The position numbers were made by a program, and so were the translations under genes. 10,609 nt of DNA from a virus: the UHGV virus genome UHGV-0223590, one strand, 5' to 3'. The notes beneath the pieces were generated by a model, which saw only the letters and a list, made by a program, of their open reading frames with translations, made no database searches and was not told the origin of the DNA. Positions 2,302 through 9,915 of this stretch are shown here, in pieces. Position 1 is the stretch's first letter; each line of letters begins with the position of its first letter.

Positions 2302-2907
2302 GATTTTGTCAGATGTGAGTAAACTCCTTATGGACTTTGTTGTTTTAGCCCATAAGGACATATTTGCAGAGTGCAACGGTTATTAAAGCATTCATTCAAT
2401 ACGTTATCTGTATTTGTAGGGCATTCCTGGCTGTTTTTGATTAAATTCCAGAATGTTTTATTGAATGGTACTACGTTGTAAATGGTTACAGGTAGCACTT
2501 TGTTATTGAGCATGATGCCTGTGTGAGTCAGTGTAAATATACTTTCAGGAGGTAAGAAAGCATCCGATTGATACCAGATTATTAATTTTATTTTACTCCA
2601 TATGACTGAAAAAGATATTCCGCATGATGGCTGGATAACTGTATCAATCACAATCCACTTCATTTAGTTTCCTTGTTTATGCCTTGCTGGTGATGTTCTG
2701 AAAAGTATAAATGATATTTTTGAATTAAACCATAGAGCAGAATTATTTTTCTGATGTTGTTTATTGTTTATTTAAATGCAGGGTGGTTTATATCTCGTCT
2801 TGTAGTTTATCCATGCATATCTGCTTGATGATGAGGTTTTTATTTAAGGTATGGTTTTGTGTTTTTTCTGTATTACATGTCAGGTATTTTAAAGAATCAT
2901 TTTTCAG

Positions 2908-4401
2908 ATGGTGGAAAGAACCATGGCATTTAAACACTATGATGTTGTCAGGGCGGCGTCGCCGTCAGATCTTGCGGAAAAGCTGACACATAAACTGAAA
3001 GAGGGCTGGCAGCCGTTTGGTAGTCCGGTGGCCATAACCCCTTATACCCTGATGCAGGCGATTGCAGCAGAAGGTGATGTGGTCGTCAGTGGTGCAACTG
3101 AGCCGGAGTGGTACTACGTCATCGTACTGGCCGGGCAATCCAATGCCATGGCTTACGGTGAAGGGCTTCCGCTTCCGGATTCATACGATGCGCCCCATCC
3201 GCGCATTAAGCAACTGGCCCGTCGTAACACAGTGACTCCCGGTGGTGAAGTATGCGTATTTAACGACATCATTCCTGCTGACCATTGTCTGCATGATGTT
3301 CAGGATATGAGTACGATTAATCATCCCCGGGCTGACCTGAGCAAAGGGCAGTACGGCTGTGTCGGACAGGGCTTACATATTGCCAAAAAACTGCTTCCGT
3401 ATATCCCTAATAACGCGGGGATCCTGCTGGTACCATGCTGTCGTGGTGGTTCGGCATTCACCCAGGGCACGGAGGGGACATTCAGCGAGTCCACGGGGGC
3501 CAGTCAGGATTCGGCTCGCTGGGGAGTGGGTAAGCCGTTATATCAGGATCTGCTTTTCCGCACGAAGGCAGCATTGCAGAAAAACCCGAAAAACGTTTTG
3601 CTGGCGATATGCTGGATGCAGGGGGAATTCGATATGACGAATGCCAGTTACGCCCAGCAGCCAGCAGCATTTCTTGCAATGGTACAGCAGTTCCGTGCTG
3701 ACCTTGCCGGGCTGGCGGCGCAGTGTCACGGTGGAAGTCCGGCATCAGTCCCCTGGATTTGTGGCGACACGACATACGCGTGGAAACAAGAACACGGTAC
3801 GCAATATGAAGTGGTATATGGTGCATATAAAGGTAAAGAATCCCAGCAGATTTATTTTGTTCCCTTTATGACCGATGGTAGCGGAGTTAATACACCGACA
3901 AACAACCCGTCAGAAGATCCTGATATTGCCGGGTCTGGTTATTACGGTTCGGCATCCCGAACGAACAAAAACTGGGTATCATCAAATCGCCCGACGCATT
4001 TCAGCTCATGGGCGCGTCGTGGCATTATTCCCGATCGTATGGCAACTGCTATTCTGAACGTAGCCGGTCGCACCTTAGCCTTCATTAGTGGTAAGGCACC
4101 GGAAATCAAACCCTCGCCCGGCGGCGACACGCCATCGGGGCCGTCTGAAGATGCATCCGTACGCACAATCTCCCTGTTGCCGACAGCCGGAGATGCTGCT
4201 GCGCAGGGCTGGAGCATTAAGAATGGCGGAATTCAGTTGTCAGATGGTGTATTTAAGATCACCAAGCAGAGCAATAAAACCTGGTCCCTGATGCATCCGG
4301 TGGATGACGCAGTCTCCCTGCTGACACGGGGTGGCAGACTGAGCTGTAAGTTTCGACTGTCAGGCGCACTGACCAACAACCAGTTCGGTCTGGGAATTTA
4401 G
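2908..4401 (+). CDS. nanS-p: Prophage-encoded NanS-p-like sialate O-acetylesterase (DUF1737-like N-terminal domain + SGNH/DUF303 esterase)
   Basis: 497-aa ORF. The N-terminus (MAFKHYDVVRAASPSDLAEKLTHKLKEGWQPFGSP...) matches the small DUF1737-type domain typical of these phage proteins. An SGNH block-I-like GQSNAMAYGEG follows. Sitting downstream of the late-region tRNA array is the canonical nanS-p position in Stx/lambdoid prophages. An alternative start at ATG 2923 (MAFKHYDV) is plausible. Confidence 0.8.
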   Translation: MVERTMAFKHYDVVRAASPSDLAEKLTHKLKEGWQPFGSPVAITPYTLMQAIAAEGDVVVSGATEPEWYYVIVLAGQSNAMAYGEGLPLPDSYDAPHPRIKQLARRNTVTPGGEVCVFNDIIPADHCLHDVQDMSTINHPRADLSKGQYGCVGQGLHIAKKLLPYIPNNAGILLVPCCRGGSAFTQGTEGTFSESTGASQDSARWGVGKPLYQDLLFRTKAALQKNPKNVLLAICWMQGEFDMTNASYAQQPAAFLAMVQQFRADLAGLAAQCHGGSPASVPWICGDTTYAWKQEHGTQYEVVYGAYKGKESQQIYFVPFMTDGSGVNTPTNNPSEDPDIAGSGYYGSASRTNKNWVSSNRPTHFSSWARRGIIPDRMATAILNVAGRTLAFISGKAPEIKPSPGGDTPSGPSEDASVRTISLLPTAGDAAAQGWSIKNGGIQLSDGVFKITKQSNKTWSLMHPVDDAVSLLTRGGRLSCKFRLSGALTNNQFGLGI

Positions 4402-4610
4402 TGCTGGCGAGCCTTGACGGGCTGATCTCCTATGCAGCAAAGGTTCATCTCAAAGTAAGACGAACGCTATGACAAACCAAGATTCTATAGACCTATCTGA
4501 TCTTCGTGGAATGGTCAGTTTTCCAGACAAAAGGTAATCACCATAGTCGTATGGCTATGAATCTTGTTGCTGCAGATAAGCATTTTGTGATTGAAGTGGT
4601 CAAATCTCTC

Positions 4611-4639
4611 AAATGCAGTAAAATGCAGTGCGCTATAAT
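4611..4639 (+). promoter_or_regulatory. Putative sigma70 promoter for the 206-aa gene (perfect -10 TATAAT at 4634-4639, weak -35), overlapped by a tandem 9-bp direct repeat
   Basis: TATAAT lies 28 nt upstream of ATG 4668, with SD AAGGAG at 4655-4660. AAATGCAGT occurs at 4611-4619 and again at 4621-4629. Confidence 0.4.
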
Positions 4640-4667
4640 TCAATAACGGAGGGAGTAAGGAGAAGTC

Positions 4668-5288
4668 ATGAAAGATCAAGATGTTAGGTTCGCGGTGCAT
4701 CATAAGCTTTTGAAAGAATCGCATTTAGATCCAGACTGCCTTGTGGTCGATGAATTTTCCATATCCCTTGGCGCCAGTAGAGCAGACATTGCTGTAATAA
4801 ATGGTGTTATACACGGGTACGAGCTCAAAAGTGAATATGACTCTTTGGAGCGTTTGCCTCTTCAAATCAAGCATTATTCTTCTGTAATGGACAAGGTTAC
4901 TCTTGTCGTAGCTGAGAAACACCTTGAGGGAGCATTAAAGTTAATTCCAGGTTGGTGGGGCGTTAAAACGGTTTCTGTTGGGCCAAAAGGCGCCATTCTT
5001 ATAAAGCACATGCGTGGAGAAAAGCTTAATCGAAACCATGACACATTGATGCTCGCTCAATTGCTTTGGAAAGATGAATGTATCGACGTACTTGAACGAT
5101 GGGGCTATTCCAAAGGAATCAAAAGCAAGCCCCGATTTGAGTTATGGAATATTATTGCGGAAAATATTCCAATAGCGAATCTCAGGCTTGAAGTCAGAAC
5201 AGCCTTAAAGAAACGCGTAGGCTGGAAAGTTAAGGCTTGGCAGGCTGAGTCTGCGCCAACCAATAAAGCTGTCTCACGACTAACGTAA
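4668..5288 (+). CDS. Hypothetical protein, 206 aa, with PD-(D/E)xK-like motif arrangement (putative nuclease)
   Basis: ORF with strong SD (AAGGAG, 7-nt spacer) and an upstream TATAAT. Carries ...VVDEFSI...SRADIAVING..HGYELKSEYD..., i.e. E29, D39, E52-x-K54 spaced like a restriction-endonuclease-fold core. Lies in AT-rich DNA unlike the flanking phage genes. Confidence 0.65.
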   Translation: MKDQDVRFAVHHKLLKESHLDPDCLVVDEFSISLGASRADIAVINGVIHGYELKSEYDSLERLPLQIKHYSSVMDKVTLVVAEKHLEGALKLIPGWWGVKTVSVGPKGAILIKHMRGEKLNRNHDTLMLAQLLWKDECIDVLERWGYSKGIKSKPRFELWNIIAENIPIANLRLEVRTALKKRVGWKVKAWQAESAPTNKAVSRLT

Positions 5289-6297
5289 TATGGTGCGTAT
5301 GTGCAACTTTACGCCATTCTTTAGAGCCGCCAGATTTGTTAGCGCCTAATGATCTTTGGTAAATGTAATCATCCCCCCAACTAAATTTGGAGCCAAAGAC
5401 TTGATACTCTGGCGAACTAACAAGGGTAGTACATAAGTTTTTAGTTTGGCCCCATCCATTTCCTTTAACTGCGGTACCTTTTACAAAGATCCATGAGGTA
5501 TCGTTCGAATATCTCACTGAGACATACTGAGACATGAAGCGTGGGTCTACGCTCGTAATGGTAGAGCTAGCGGTGGGATAATCACTAAAACTTGGCGTTC
5601 TTCCATTGCTAAAATTCTGTACTACGTACATCCAAAGATCGTATTCATGGCGCGGAATATGATGAACTTGATGTTGCGGTATCCCTGCCTGTGATGCCGG
5701 GTATGCGGTTGAAGATAAAATCAAGTTTCTCCACGGAGCTTGGCCTGATAATGTGTTGACCATGCTTAATGCTTGTTGTTTTAAACTATCAGTTGCGTTT
5801 TGAATATCTCCAAAATCAATGATTACATCAATTAAACTAGGATGAATATTTAAGTGGTTAACCAGACTTGTGAATTGGTGCCATGTCTGGGGGGTGATAG
5901 ATATAGCGAGCCCATTGATTAAGTTGCGTTGAACAGCATGTATATAGTTTGTTGAATATGCGGGAGAAACAACAGGGATAATTTCCTTACCATTTACTCT
6001 AGCATCTTGGATACACATATCTAGAGGATGATGGCGGCTCGAACCATGTTTATCTAAATATTTAACATCCAGCAAAACAGGACGATTGGCTTTCCAGGAT
6101 GCCGCAAGGTTAATACCGAAGTCAGATAAGTAAGAACTCAAACTCTTCTTGTAGCATTCGTTTTCATAATCCCAGTCTATGTCTGGAATGGTAATGATCG
6201 GAGTAAAACCAGAGAGCGTAGTTTGATCTAAAAGCATCAGAGATTCATATTCAGCAGGCTTCCATTTCAGCTGTGGATAATATTGATGTTGACTCAT
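5230..6297 (-). CDS. Hypothetical protein, 355 aa, partner of the 206-aa gene (convergent, 59-bp 3' overlap)
   Basis: Long minus-strand ORF with a strong SD (AAGGAG, 6 nt before ATG, seen as CTCCTT at 6303-6308 on +). AT-rich like its partner. No catalytic motif I can assign by eye. Confidence 0.65.
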   Translation of the reverse strand: MSQHQYYPQLKWKPAEYESLMLLDQTTLSGFTPIITIPDIDWDYENECYKKSLSSYLSDFGINLAASWKANRPVLLDVKYLDKHGSSRHHPLDMCIQDARVNGKEIIPVVSPAYSTNYIHAVQRNLINGLAISITPQTWHQFTSLVNHLNIHPSLIDVIIDFGDIQNATDSLKQQALSMVNTLSGQAPWRNLILSSTAYPASQAGIPQHQVHHIPRHEYDLWMYVVQNFSNGRTPSFSDYPTASSTITSVDPRFMSQYVSVRYSNDTSWIFVKGTAVKGNGWGQTKNLCTTLVSSPEYQVFGSKFSWGDDYIYQRSLGANKSGGSKEWRKVAHTHHITLVVRQLYWLAQTQPAKP

Positions 6298-6327
6298 TAA
6301 AACTCCTTAAAATCTTTACTTATCCTA

Positions 6328-6356
6328 AGTATAGTGTTATGGCGTAACGCCAATTG
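6328..6356 (-). promoter_or_regulatory. Putative promoter/operator for the 355-aa gene (-10 TATACT; inverted repeat TGGCG-N3-CGCCA in spacer/-35 region)
   Basis: On the minus strand TATACT lies about 30 nt upstream of the start codon. The palindrome TGGCGTAACGCCA (6340-6352) sits immediately upstream of it. Confidence 0.3.
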
Positions 6357-6520
6357 TTTTTATACACTTGAAAACATTGGGAAAAGTTGAGCTATATCTA
6401 AATTTACAAAATTGGATGTTATAGAAATCGAGGTTTCAACTAGGCATGGAACTGCAAAATTTTTAATGCCTGCACGCGAAAGTCGTTGGCGGGTCCTTTC
6501 CGGTGATCCAGATCGTTACG

Positions 6521-6532: not shown

Positions 6533-6707
6533 CGCGGTTTTTCACTATTTATGAAAATTTTTCAGGGAAAATCGTGTCGGTACTTCTCGAATATAACTTT
6601 TTGTTTTTTTTAATATTGCATTCATAAATGTCCGACATGAAAGTGTCCGAAAATGCCTTTTTTTGGCGTTTTCATGTCGGGCCTTGTATTTGATAATGAG
6701 TTGTTCT
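6533..6707 (+). promoter_or_regulatory. cosB-like region (terminase small-subunit binding sites) between cosN and Nu1
   Basis: Repeated motif related to CGACATGAAA in both orientations: TGTCCGACATGAAAG at 6629-6643, TGTCCGAAAATG at 6645-6656, and the inverted TTTTCATGTCGGG at 6669-6681. Position corresponds to the lambda R3-I1-R2-R1 region. Confidence 0.6.
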
Positions 6708-7256
6708 ATGAAGGTTAATAAAAAGAGGCTTGCCGAAATTTTCAACGTGGATCCGCGAACGATTGAACGCTGGCAGTCTCAGGGGCTCCCTTGCGTCTCC
6801 AAAGGCAGTAAGGGCATTGAATCTGTATTTGATACTGCCATGGCAATTCAGTGGTATGCGCAGAGGGAAACTGATATCGAAAACGAAAAGCTCCGCAAAG
6901 AACTGGCCGATTTGCGTGCGGCAGCGGAGTCAGATTTACAACCCGGCACCATTGACTATGAACGCTACCGGCTCACAAAAGCGCAGGCAGATGCGCAGGA
7001 ACTGAAAAATGCCCGTGAAGACGGAGTGGTGCTGGAAACTGAACTATTTACCTTCATTCTGCAACGTGTGGCACAGGAGATTTCGGGGATACTTGTGCGT
7101 GTGCCGTTGACATTACAGCGTAAATATCCGGACATTTCACCATCACACCTTGATGTGGTGAAAACTGAAATCGCGAAAGCCTCCAATGTTGCAGCTAAGG
7201 CCGGTGAAAACGTGGGCGGGTGGATCGATGATTTCAGACGCACAGAAGGCAGCTAA
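6708..7256 (+). CDS. nu1: Terminase small subunit (lambda gpNu1 homologue)
   Basis: [28 protein letters not shown]...[48 protein letters not shown]... is colinear with lambda Nu1 (MEVNKKQLADIFGASIRTIQNWQEQGMP...). Start moved to the internal ATG 6708 (MKVNKK) rather than the track's 6663, matching the lambda N-terminus and the distance from cosN. Confidence 0.9.
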
Positions 7257-9156
7257 TGCAGCCGGTGCGATAGCTACAGGGCTTTTATCTCTCATTATTC
7301 CTGTTCCACTGACGACAGTTCAGTGGGCCAATAAACATTATTACCTTCCTAAAGAGTCGTCTTATACCCCGGGGCGGTGGGAAACACTGCCGTTTCAGGT
7401 TGGCATCATGAACTGTATGGGCAACGATTTGATTCGCACTGTTAACCTGATTAAATCTGCCCGTGTTGGTTATACAAAGATGTTGCTGGGAGTGGAGGCT
7501 TATTTTATTGAGCATAAATCACGCAACAGCCTTCTTTTTCAGCCCACGGACTCAGCTGCTGAAGATTTTATGAAATCTCATGTTGAGCCAACGATAAGGG
7601 ATGTTCCTGCATTGCTGGAGCTGGCTCCATGGTTCGGAAGAAAACACCGCGATAATACGCTCACCCTGAAGCGTTTTTCCTCCGGTGTGGGTTTCTGGTG
7701 TCTGGGGGGAGCGGCAGCAAAAAACTACCGTGAAAAATCCGTGGATGTGGTTTGTTATGACGAGCTTTCCTCGTTCGAACCGGATGTTGAAAAAGAGGGT
7801 TCGCCAACCCTGCTGGGGGATAAACGTATTGAGGGCTCTGTATGGCCAAAATCCATTCGCGGCTCGACGCCTAAAATCAAAGGCTCCTGCCAGATCGAAA
7901 AAGCCGCTAACGAGTCGGCACATTTCATGCGTTTTTATGTGCCCTGTCCGCACTGTGGGGAGGAGCAGTATCTGAAATTTGGCGATGATGCCTCGCCTTT
8001 CGGTCTTAAGTGGGAGAAGAATAAGCCAGAAAGTGTTTTCTACCTTTGTGAGCATCATGGCTGTGTGATCCATCAGTCTGAGCTTGACCAGAGTAACGGG
8101 CGGTGGATCTGTGAAAACACGGGCATGTGGACTCGTGACGGTCTGACATTTTTCAGCGCCGCGGATAATGAAATTCCGCCGCCGCGCTCCATCACATTCC
8201 ATATCTGGACGGCGTACAGTCCGTTCACCACCTGGGTACAGATTGTCTATGACTGGCTGGATGCACTGAAAGATCCCAACGGCCTGAAAACCTTTGTGAA
8301 CACCACGCTGGGCGAGACCTGGGAAGAGGCCGTGGGCGAAAAACTCGATCACCAGGTGCTGATGGATAAGGTTGTGCGTTACACGGCTGCGGTGCCTTCC
8401 CGGGTGGTTTATCTGACGGCGGGCATTGACTCGCAGCGAAACCGTTTTGAGATGTATGTCTGGGGATGGGCTCCGGGAGAGGAAGCCTTTCTGGTGGATA
8501 AAATCATCATTATGGGGCGTCCCGATGAGGAAGAGACGCTGTTACGTGTGGATGTGGCGATCAACAAAAAATACCGCCATGCAGACGGAACCGAAATGAC
8601 CATTTCCCGTGTCTGCTGGGACACCGGGGGGATCGATGGCGAAATTGTCTATCAGAGGTCAAAAAAACACGGTGTTTTCCGGGTGCTGCCGGTAAAAGGT
8701 GCATCTGTTTATGGCAAGCCGGTGATCACCATGCCAAAAACCCGCAATCAGCGGGGCGTGTATCTGTGCGAAGTGGGGACGGACACCGCAAAAGAAATTC
8801 TCTATGCCCGTATGAAAGCCGATCCCACGCCTGCGGATGAAGCCACGTCGTATGCCATCCGTTTTCCTGATGATCCGGAGATTTTTTCGCAGACAGAGGC
8901 GCAGCAACTGGTGGCGGAAGAGCTTGTGGAGAAGTGGGAAAAAGGAAAGATGCGTCTGCTGTGGGATAACAAAAAGCGGCGTAACGAAGCGCTGGACTGC
9001 CTGGTGTATGCCTACGCGGCATTACGTGTGTCCGTGCAACGCTGGCAGCTTGATCTGGCTGTACTGGCAAAATCCCGGGAAGAAGAGACGACCCGGCCAA
9101 CCCTTAAAGAACTGGCAGCGAAGCTGTCCGGAGGAGTGAATGGTTACAGTCGCTGA
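7228..9156 (+). CDS. A: Terminase large subunit (lambda gpA homologue)
   Basis: Long stretches match lambda gpA as I recall it: [145 protein letters not shown]. Start set at ATG 7228 (MISDAQ...), overlapping the Nu1 3' end by 29 nt as in lambda; the track's ATG 7186 lies in the same frame but inside Nu1. Confidence 0.9.
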
Positions 9157-9346
9157 ACTGCAGGCGCTGCGTCAGGCGCGCCTTGATTTATTAACCGGTA
9201 AACGGGTGGTGTCTGTCCAGAAAGATGGTCGCAGAATTGAATATACGGCAGCTTCTCTGGATGAGCTTAACCGGGCGATCAATGATGCGGAGTCGGTACT
9301 GGGGACAACCCGCCGTCGCCGTCGTCCGCTGGGAGTGAGGTTATGA
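9140..9346 (+). CDS. W: Head-tail joining protein (lambda gpW homologue)
   Basis: 68 aa; LTGKRVVSVQKDGRRIEYTAASLDEL...RRRRRP matches lambda gpW ([26 protein letters not shown]...). GGAGG SD upstream; overlaps the A stop. Confidence 0.9.
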   Translation: MVTVAELQALRQARLDLLTGKRVVSVQKDGRRIEYTAASLDELNRAINDAESVLGTTRRRRRPLGVRL

Positions 9347-9915
9347 AACGAACGCCTGTCCTGATTGATGTGAACGGCGTTCCGCTTCGGGAGAGCCTCA
9401 GCTACAACGGTGGCGGTGCAGGATTTGGCGGGCAAATGGCAGAGTGGTTGCCACCCTCGCAGAGTGCCGATGCGGCCCTGCTGCCCGCGTTGCGTCTGGG
9501 GAATGCCCGTGCAGATGATCTGGTGCGCAATAACGGAATAGCGGCCAATGCGGTGGCCCTGCATAAGGATCACATTGTCGGGCATATGTTTCTGATTAGC
9601 TACCGTCCGAACTGGCGCTGGCTGGGGATGCGGGAGACCGCGGCAAAAAGTTTTGTCGATGAGGTGGAGGCGGCCTGGTCAGAATACGCAGAAGGGATGT
9701 TTGGTGAGATCGACGTGGAAGGGAAACGCACGTTTACGGAATTTATCCGTGAAGGTGTGGGCGTTCATGCGTTTAACGGCGAAATCTTTGTGCAGCCGGT
9801 CTGGGATACGGAGAGTACGCAACTGTTTCGTACGCGTTTTAAAGCCGTGAGTCCGAAACGGGTGGACACGCCAGGACACGGTAGCTGCCAGTATCAATAT
9901 CAAGCCGGGCCATGA
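9343..9915 (+). pseudogene. B: Portal protein gene B, truncated (N-terminal ~180 codons only)
   Basis: MKRTPVLIDVNGVPLRESLSYNGGGAGFGGQMAEWLPP...[15 protein letters not shown] is near-identical to the lambda gpB N-terminus. Homology stops at about 9882 and the ORF ends 11 codons later ([10 protein letters not shown]). Lambda gpB is over 500 aa. Confidence 0.85.

What the first reader, a model, noticed from the sequence alone, without database searches (positions are those of the whole stretch)
5230..5288. Convergent genes overlap by 59 bp at their 3' ends
The stop codons of the + gene (5286-5288) and the - gene (5230-5232) interlock, so the last ~19 codons of each gene are encoded on opposite strands of the same DNA. 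Transcripts must extend into each other, since there is no room for terminators between them. This could give mutual antisense regulation or transcriptional interference, similar to some toxin-antitoxin and restriction-modification control circuits.
Basis: seen in the sequence. Interest (0 to 1): 0.45.

Follow-up and report, generated by a model that had tools for sequence, protein, structure and literature searches.

The report
Interlocked convergent beta–cII defence gene pair
The 59-bp tail-to-tail overlap is real: it is the E. coli form of an ancient arrangement in which a nuclease gene (cII/sce7726) and its partner (beta) are locked together at their 3' ends, a two-gene relative of known anti-phage systems, though the exact length of the overlap is an accident of where a stop codon falls.

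Summary
The + ORF at 4668-5288 (206 aa) and the - ORF at 5230-6297 (355 aa) overlap by 59 bp, and RefSeq annotates them the same way. The + gene is a P4 cII/sce7726-family protein with a PD-(D/E)xK nuclease fold. The - gene is a P4 "beta" protein (PF14350) with a TIM-barrel fold. They form a gop-less two-gene relative of the anti-phage systems gop-beta-cII and PD-lambda-2, sitting in a decayed phage-21-like prophage.

Of 170 related loci with enough flanking sequence, 167 have the same convergent layout. These span enterobacteria, Alphaproteobacteria, Bacteroidetes, actinophages and metagenomes. Ninety-nine of 101 distinct junctions overlap, by 11-170 bp. In 86 distinct junctions the conserved cores sit 1 nt apart, so each stop codon lies inside the partner's core.

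The window's clade has a 39-nt spacer and usually an 11-bp overlap. E. coli reads TGG where relatives read TAG, which adds 16 non-conserved, predicted-disordered residues and gives 59 bp.

So the arrangement is conserved but the 59 bp is not. No intrinsic terminators follow the stops, so the two mRNAs should be complementary at their 3' ends. Mutual antisense control is plausible but untested.

The parts
4668..5288 (+). cII / sce7726-family gene (206 aa), a predicted PD-(D/E)xK nuclease. The conserved domain ends at W186; residues 188-206 are a disordered tail.
5230..6297 (-). beta-family gene (355 aa), a TIM-barrel protein related to P4 beta and PD-lambda-2C.
5230..5288 (.). 59-bp tail-to-tail overlap. 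It encodes beta residues 337-355 (a conserved helix plus tail) on the - strand and cII residues 188-206 (non-conserved tail) on the + strand.
5238..5240 (+). TGG (W191 of cII). This is the position where the closest relatives have the cII stop codon TAG. On the beta strand the difference is the synonymous GCC versus GCT.
   Evidence: Codon-level comparison with Pantoea, Pectobacterium, Klebsiella and Edwardsiella loci. Cronobacter has TCG at the same site, giving a 47-bp overlap.
5223..5225 (+). Codon of the conserved cII W186, the last conserved residue of the nuclease domain. Used as the anchor for the spacing analysis.
5266..5268 (-). Codon of the conserved beta L344, the last invariant residue of beta. 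Its first base lies 45 nt from the first base of the cII W186 codon here, against 6 nt in most of the family.
4597..4662 (+). Putative cII expression signals: a promoter-like site at 4597-4624, a perfect TATAAT at 4634-4639, and the Shine-Dalgarno sequence AAGGAG at 4657-4662.
   Evidence: Consensus scan and direct reading of the sequence. Not tested.
6298..6365 (-). Upstream region of beta, with the Shine-Dalgarno sequence AAGGAG at 6308-6303. On the + strand there is a terminator-like hairpin at 6340-6352 with its T tract running to 6362, which would end cII read-through only after it has crossed all of beta in antisense.
   Evidence: Not tested.

Best explanation
SHOWN. The two ORFs form a stand-alone beta/cII module, a TIM-barrel protein plus a PD-(D/E)xK nuclease. 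It is a gop-less relative of the P4 gop-beta-cII anti-phage system and of PD-lambda-2, carried between the lysis region and cos of a decayed phage-21-like prophage.

Their tail-to-tail interlock is an ancestral feature of this gene pair. In most members the last conserved codon of cII (W) and the last conserved codon of beta (L/I) are separated by a single nucleotide. Each gene can therefore only terminate inside the conserved 3' core of the other. The overlapping ends are variable passenger tails: 1-39 residues for cII and 4-47 for beta. Any indel there would damage the partner, so the geometry is locked.

The window's enterobacterial clade acquired a 39-nt spacer, which cut the overlap to 11 bp. 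E. coli and E. albertii carry TGG where relatives carry the TAG stop, and the change is synonymous in beta. cII therefore runs on for 16 non-conserved, disordered residues to the next in-frame stop, giving 59 bp.

INFERRED. There is no intergenic DNA and no intrinsic terminator after either stop. Each transcript must therefore end inside the other gene, probably by Rho or by polymerase collision. The two mRNAs would then be complementary at their 3' ends, and expression of the nuclease and of beta would be reciprocally dampened by transcriptional interference and/or RNase III cleavage of the duplex. The selected or retained trait is the convergent, spacer-less arrangement, not the length of the ORF overlap.
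For: No gop, HigB-like or PD-lambda-2B homologue is present in the window.

Family survey: convergent in 167 of 170 loci with adequate flank, with overlaps of 11-170 bp in 99 of 101 distinct junctions. The loci were found through cII alone, so the sample is not biased towards beta.

Anchor spacing is 6 nt in 86 distinct junctions. The beta codon after L is always GCC, TCC or ACC, and the next codon always starts with A. Both are forced by the cII TGG codon. The tails are non-conserved in length and sequence.

Independent annotations show the same overlaps: PGAP, Rac-SA53 at 41 bp, and Mesorhizobium at 59 bp and Devosia at 83 bp.

The TAG/TGG difference and the 39-nt spacer are shown. There is a separate stop loss in Cronobacter. 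The tail is predicted disordered. No terminators follow the stops.

The defence role of relatives is reported in Rousset 2022, PMC9122126; Silas 2023, bioRxiv 10.1101/2023.04.06.535777; and Vassallo 2022, PMC9519451.
Against: No transcript mapping or expression data were available, so the regulatory step is pure inference.

P4, the only experimentally studied member, has separated ORFs. A hairpin with a T tract stops cII transcripts exactly at the end of beta. Its gop-beta-cII locus confers resistance to lambda and P1, so ORF overlap is not required for function there.

Where a spacer exists, overlap length and even phase drift: 11, 18, 47 and 59 bp. A structural lock predicts this without any regulatory selection.

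The direction of the TAG/TGG change is not resolved. E. coli is nested among 11-bp relatives in a neighbour-joining tree, but the outgroup L056 also has TGG and 59 bp.

No anti-phage activity has been shown for any gop-less two-gene module.
Confidence: 0.6

Rival explanations
1. Structural lock only. The overlap is a frozen consequence of two genes whose conserved cores came to abut. It persists because indels would damage one partner, and perhaps because it keeps the two genes inseparable during horizontal transfer. It has no regulatory role. Transcripts are simply ended by Rho inside the partner gene at harmless levels.
For: The tails are passengers with no conservation. Once a spacer exists, overlap length and phase drift or the overlap disappears: 11, 18, 47 and 59 bp, a gap of 14 bp in L051, and a gap of 27 bp plus a terminator in P4. 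P4's gop-beta-cII locus, whose ORFs do not overlap, confers resistance to lambda and P1.
Against: Convergent orientation is kept in every locus that has both genes, including those where the lock is broken. With no terminators present, complementary 3' ends are hard to avoid and would normally have some effect on expression.
Confidence: 0.33
2. One reading: the 59-bp dual-coding segment is itself a selected antisense control element.
For: It is fixed in the E. coli and E. albertii lineage. An independent 59-bp overlap occurs in L056 and in Mesorhizobium.
Against: The closest relatives have 11 bp, and the clade also shows 18 and 47 bp. The extension is non-conserved and disordered. A 16-codon run-on has P of about 0.23 by chance. 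The segment shows no unusual RNA structure, with z-scores of +0.72 and -1.0.
Confidence: 0.05
3. The C-terminal tails have a protein-level function, for example the cII tail contacting beta, and the overlap exists to encode them.
For: The beta tail ending in PA(R/K)P is fairly conserved within the window's clade.
Against: cII tails range from 1 to 39 residues with unrelated sequences, and beta tails from 4 to 47. The cII tail is predicted disordered. The conservation of the beta tail can be explained by the dual-coding constraint.
Confidence: 0.03

Closest known systems
P4 gop-beta-cII (PADLOC gop_beta_cll), an anti-phage, toxin-antitoxin-like locus of satellite phage P4
   Same: It has homologous beta (PF14350) and cII (sce7726 / Phage_P4_cII) genes in the same convergent orientation. 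It is carried on a mobile element next to cos.
   Different: There is no gop gene here. In P4 the ORFs do not overlap: there is a 27-bp gap holding a hairpin with a T tract that terminates cII transcripts. P4 cII carries a 78-residue C-terminal extension. Identity to the window's cII is only 27%.
PD-lambda-2 (Vassallo et al. 2022): HigB-like A, Xre-peptidase B and beta-like C
   Same: Component C is a Beta_protein family member and is required for defence. In 31 metagenomic loci a PD-Lambda-2_B-type gene lies directly upstream of beta; a HigB-like ORF upstream of that was checked and found in two of them. In Mesorhizobium and Devosia genomes a DUF6932 gene takes the HigB-like position. In all of these the operon ends in the same interlocked beta/cII pair.
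   Different: The window has no A or B component. The published system definition has three genes and no cII.
Type I toxin-antitoxin pairs with convergent, 3'-overlapping transcripts (B. subtilis txpA/RatA, bsrG/SR4), and lambda cII mRNA with OOP antisense RNA. Cited from my own knowledge.
   Same: Convergent transcription gives RNAs complementary at their 3' ends. In those systems this triggers RNase III-dependent decay and couples the levels of the two partners. This is the mechanism inferred here.
   Different: There one partner is a small non-coding RNA. Here both partners are protein-coding and the overlap is dual-coding. No RNA data exist for this module.
NCBIfam sce7726 family cassette, as RefSeq annotates it: 'sce7726 family protein' next to 'beta family protein'
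   Same: The window's proteins are members and carry exactly these RefSeq names.
   Different: The annotation records coordinates only. In the held literature I found no description of the conserved convergent overlap.

Membership tests
P4 gop-beta-cII system | beta protein (Pfam PF14350) | tested here: met
   PF14350 8.2e-56, profile positions 1-342 of 342. PADLOC beta 3.5e-10.
P4 gop-beta-cII system | cII protein (sce7726 / Phage_P4_cII family) | tested here: met
   NCBIfam NF033832 184 bits against a cut-off of 70. PADLOC cll 4.3e-31. tblastn to P4 cII 1e-11.
P4 gop-beta-cII system | gop gene upstream of and co-directional with beta | tested here: not met
   No ORF of at least 60 aa lies on the - strand between 6298 and cos. 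tblastn of P4 Gop against the window gives a best E of 2.7.
P4 gop-beta-cII system | beta and cII convergently transcribed | tested here: met
P4 gop-beta-cII system | Protects against phage (lambda, P1); toxic when triggered | not testable with these tools
   Reported for P4-type loci only.
PD-lambda-2 | HigB-like component A and Xre-peptidase (M78) component B | tested here: not met
   tblastn of a HigB-like protein and a PD-Lambda-2_B protein against the window gives E of at least 0.077.
PD-lambda-2 | beta-like component C | tested here: met
   PADLOC PD-Lambda-2_C 4.4e-32, but only over residues 141-344.
PD-(D/E)xK nuclease superfamily (for cII) | Restriction-endonuclease-like fold with a conserved D...(D/E)xK motif | tested here: met
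Type I toxin-antitoxin (3'-overlap class) | The antitoxin is a small antisense RNA | tested here: not met
   Both partners are conserved protein-coding genes.
Type I toxin-antitoxin (3'-overlap class) | Transcripts complementary at their 3' ends | not testable with these tools
   Inferred from the ORF overlap and the absence of terminators.

The most novel reading that the evidence does not exclude
The beta/cII pair is an ancient, physically interlocked two-gene core whose spacer-less convergent layout forms an obligatory antisense circuit between two protein-coding genes, in effect a protein-protein analogue of a type I toxin-antitoxin pair. This circuit would set the nuclease-to-partner ratio. 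The same core underlies at least three anti-phage architectures: gop-beta-cII, the PD-lambda-2 type with Xre-peptidase plus beta, and the stand-alone pair seen here. On this reading the published three-gene definition of PD-lambda-2 omits a natural fourth component.
Probability: 0.25. Interest if true: 0.7.

Novelty: new variant of a known kind. Interest (0 to 1): 0.5.

Why it matters
Long-lived antisense overlaps between two conserved protein-coding genes are rare in bacteria. Here one has been kept, with the cores 1 nt apart, across very distant lineages, inside a module linked to phage defence.

This gives a clean natural case for three questions. One is how dual coding constrains protein ends. 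Another is how an overlap can lock two genes together on mobile elements. The third is whether convergent transcription is used to balance a nuclease against its partner.

Practically, defence-system finders that require gop, or the HigB-like and Xre-peptidase genes, will miss the stand-alone pair. Gene callers can also miss the overlapped gene: it is unannotated in Gordonia phage DumpsterDude.

Tried and rejected
1. Sequencing or annotation artefact: rejected. The pair is identical in more than 120 complete genomes and is annotated by PGAP.

2. Terminator in or near the overlap: none was found in the window or in L001. A family-wide scan with my own implementation of the same rule showed no enrichment.

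3. Special RNA structure in the overlap: z-scores of +0.72 and -1.0, which is nothing unusual.

6. Ghisotti et al. 1990, the P4 transcript mapping paper (PMC249035), is not held.

7. I tried to find out whether the original E. coli PD-lambda-2 locus (ECOR42, QOYB01000002 229385-232009) has a convergent cII. Plasmid and phage protein searches and a profile search returned no E. coli example, so this is unresolved.

8. Polarity of the TAG/TGG change: the neighbour-joining tree and the outgroup disagree, so it is left open.

9. One literature search, on 'beta family protein', was swamped by TGF-beta papers.

Full report
**1. The observation**

The window holds a + ORF at 4668-5288 (206 aa) and a - ORF at 5230-6297 (355 aa). 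The + stop TAA is at 5286-5288. The - stop reads TTA on the + strand at 5230-5232. The two reading frames therefore share 59 bp.

The same two genes with the same coordinates relative to each other are annotated by PGAP in E. coli DA33133. They appear as "sce7726 family protein" (WP_000654791.1) and "beta family protein" (WP_000077907.1). The 2.25-kb module is present at 99% identity or more in 123 complete E. coli genomes and in E. albertii.

**2. Genomic setting**

The window is a phage-21-like lambdoid prophage. Its genes are:
- a DNA methyltransferase at 120-1169;
- a SASA esterase at 2908-4401;
- Nu1 at 6663-7256 and the large terminase at 7186-9156;
- cos at about 6521.

The module sits between the lysis region and cos, a typical place for accessory genes. 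The prophage is decayed. Compared with DA33133, 2.28 kb carrying the 3' end of the esterase gene, the holin, lysozyme and Rz is deleted at about 4400. The portal gene is joined to gpJ at about 9883. The module itself is intact.

**3. What the genes are**

The - gene matches Pfam Beta_protein over the whole profile (8e-56) and PADLOC PD-Lambda-2_C and beta. Its model (pLDDT 92, pTM 0.91) is a TIM barrel ending in a long helix at 325-350.

P4 gop-beta-cII protects against lambda and P1 (Rousset 2022, PMC9122126). It is triggered to kill by a phage accessory gene (Silas 2023, bioRxiv 10.1101/2023.04.06.535777). PD-lambda-2C, "related to a P4 phage antitoxin", is required for defence (Vassallo 2022, PMC9519451).

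The window has no gop, HigB-like or Xre-peptidase gene. It is a bare two-gene variant.

**4. Is the overlap conserved?**

I collected loci from four sources:
- GTDB genomes;
- annotated phage records;
- IMG/VR;
- JGI metagenomes, using a query of distant cII sequences at 36-72% identity to an Acinetobacter homologue.

The IMG/VR and metagenome scans were seeded on cII only, so they are not biased towards having beta. Of 170 loci with enough flank, 167 have beta convergent with cII. The remaining three, Mx4, L052 and L157, have cII without beta.

Among 101 distinct junctions, 99 overlap, by 11-170 bp. The two that do not are P4 (27-bp gap) and L051 (14-bp gap).

Independent annotations agree: Rac-SA53 has 41 bp, Mesorhizobium sp. 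AR10 has 59 bp, and Devosia limi has 83 bp. The arrangement also occurs in a Bacteroidetes MAG (29 bp) and in Gordonia phage DumpsterDude (89 bp).

**5. Anatomy of the interlock**

I measured the distance from the first base of the codon for the last conserved cII residue (W186) to the first base of the codon for the last invariant beta residue (L344). It is exactly 6 nt in 86 distinct, highly diverged junctions. This means the two cores are 1 nt apart.

Each gene's stop must therefore lie inside the other's conserved core. The overlapping parts are tails of arbitrary length, 1-39 residues for cII and 4-47 for beta, with unrelated sequences.

Dual coding is directly visible. The beta codon after L is GCC, TCC or ACC in all 82 junctions where cII has W, and the next codon always begins with A. 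Both are dictated by the cII TGG. To the left of the junction, nucleotide conservation follows the cII codon periodicity. To the right it follows beta's.

All overlaps in this survey are 2 mod 3, as the fixed spacing requires. One later example from the spacer-containing clade, Enterobacter sp. 63 at 18 bp, breaks the phase.

**6. Where the 59 bp comes from**

The window's clade has an anchor distance of 45 nt, that is, a 39-nt spacer encoding an 11-residue beta tail. In Pantoea, Pectobacterium, Klebsiella, Edwardsiella and related viral contigs, cII is 190 aa and ends ...DWKxxx-TAG. The overlap is then 11 bp.

E. coli has GCT TGG where they have GCC TAG. On the beta strand this is GCC AAG versus GCT AGG. 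The base that removes the stop is synonymous in beta, and the other change is R to K. cII then runs on through WQAESAPTNKAVSRLT to TAA.

This extension has three properties:
- it is absent from the family profile;
- it is unrelated to the extensions in Cronobacter (TAG to TCG, 47 bp) and in L056;
- it is predicted disordered.

A 16-codon run-on in that frame has P of about 0.23. A neighbour-joining tree nests E. coli among the 11-bp relatives, which suggests stop loss. However, the outgroup L056 also has TGG and 59 bp, so the polarity is open.

**7. Transcription**

No intrinsic terminator-like site lies in or near the overlap. The first one on the + strand is at 6340-6362, beyond the beta start codon. 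Unterminated cII transcripts would therefore be antisense to all of beta.

Family-wide, terminator-like sites occur at 0.45-0.48 per kb in the 300 nt after each stop, against 0.27-0.39 per kb elsewhere in the genes. The overlap has no unusual RNA structure.

P4 is the exception. A hairpin followed by a T tract on the cII strand sits exactly between the stops.

**8. Interpretation**

What is shown: the genes, the family-wide interlock, its dual-coding signature, and the origin of the 59-bp length.

What is inferred: the mRNAs overlap at their 3' ends, and this reciprocally dampens expression of the nuclease and of beta.

The main rival is a pure structural lock with no regulatory role. It is supported by the drift of overlap length and phase wherever a spacer exists, and by P4 working without ORF overlap. 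I put the combined account at 0.6, the lock-only rival at about 0.33, and the idea that the 59-bp segment itself is a selected element at about 0.05.

**9. Comparison with known systems, and novelty**

The locus is a member of the sce7726 and beta protein families, and a gop-less variant of gop-beta-cII. It fails the membership tests for the complete gop-beta-cII and PD-lambda-2 systems.

In 31 metagenomic loci a PD-Lambda-2_B-type gene (6e-143) lies directly upstream of beta. A HigB-like ORF upstream of that was checked and found in two of them. In Mesorhizobium and Devosia a DUF6932 gene takes that position. In all of these the operon ends in the same interlocked beta/cII pair. This suggests beta/cII is a shared core.

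I found no description of the conserved overlap in the held literature.

Noticed in passing
window 4398-4400 (junction); compare L001 2723-4998: Relative to E. coli DA33133, the window lacks 2.28 kb carrying the 3' end of the SASA esterase gene, the holin, YdfR, lysozyme and Rz. The esterase ORF here is 497 aa instead of 618 aa. The prophage has lost its lysis cassette, yet the beta/cII module next to the deletion is intact.
   Followed up: partly
window about 9883: The portal gene (ORF 9343-9915) stops matching DA33133 at about 9883. The remaining sequence is 99.7% identical to the tail-tip gene gpJ in other E. coli genomes. This is a second large deletion that removes the head and most tail genes, so the element is a cryptic remnant.
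   Followed up: partly
L107, L137, L156 and 28 other metagenome loci; L178 4765-6409; L179 4762-6397: PD-lambda-2-like operons commonly end in the same interlocked beta/cII pair. They consist of a HigB-like gene (seen in the two loci checked, L137 and L156) or a DUF6932 gene, then an Xre-M78 peptidase matching PADLOC PD-Lambda-2_B at 6e-143, then beta. The published PD-lambda-2 definition has three genes and no cII. Whether the original ECOR42 locus has a cII could not be checked.
   Followed up: partly
L011 3001-3633 (Gordonia phage DumpsterDude, MT024859.1 28666-29298): A full-length cII/sce7726 ORF (44% identity to the window's) is not annotated. A 71-aa gene 32 is called on the opposite strand instead. 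The ORF overlaps the beta-like gene 33 by 89 bp. This is probably a gene-calling miss caused by the overlap.
   Followed up: no
window 6340-6362, + strand: A terminator-like hairpin (TGGCGTAACGCCA followed by a T tract) lies 43 nt upstream of the beta start codon, on the opposite strand. It would stop cII or late read-through transcription only after it had crossed the whole of beta in antisense, just before cos.
   Followed up: no
L177 1295-1318 (Enterobacter sp. 63): This is the one member of the spacer-containing clade with an 18-bp overlap in a different relative reading phase. The beta stop TAG is exactly codon-aligned with a cII CTA codon. It shows that a 1-nt indel is tolerated once the cores are separated.
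   Followed up: partly
L012 (Myxococcus phage Mx4), L052, L157: These cII/sce7726 homologues have no adjacent beta gene. In L052, ORFs of 165 and 247 aa follow on the same strand; they were not identified. More distant sce7726-like hits in Bacillus, Staphylococcus and Lactobacillus phages were not examined for partners.
   Followed up: no
window 2328-2663, - strand: An IraM anti-adapter gene, so named in RefSeq, lies in a low-GC patch (33-41% GC against about 50% nearby) upstream of the esterase gene. It is another accessory gene in the same prophage.
   Followed up: no
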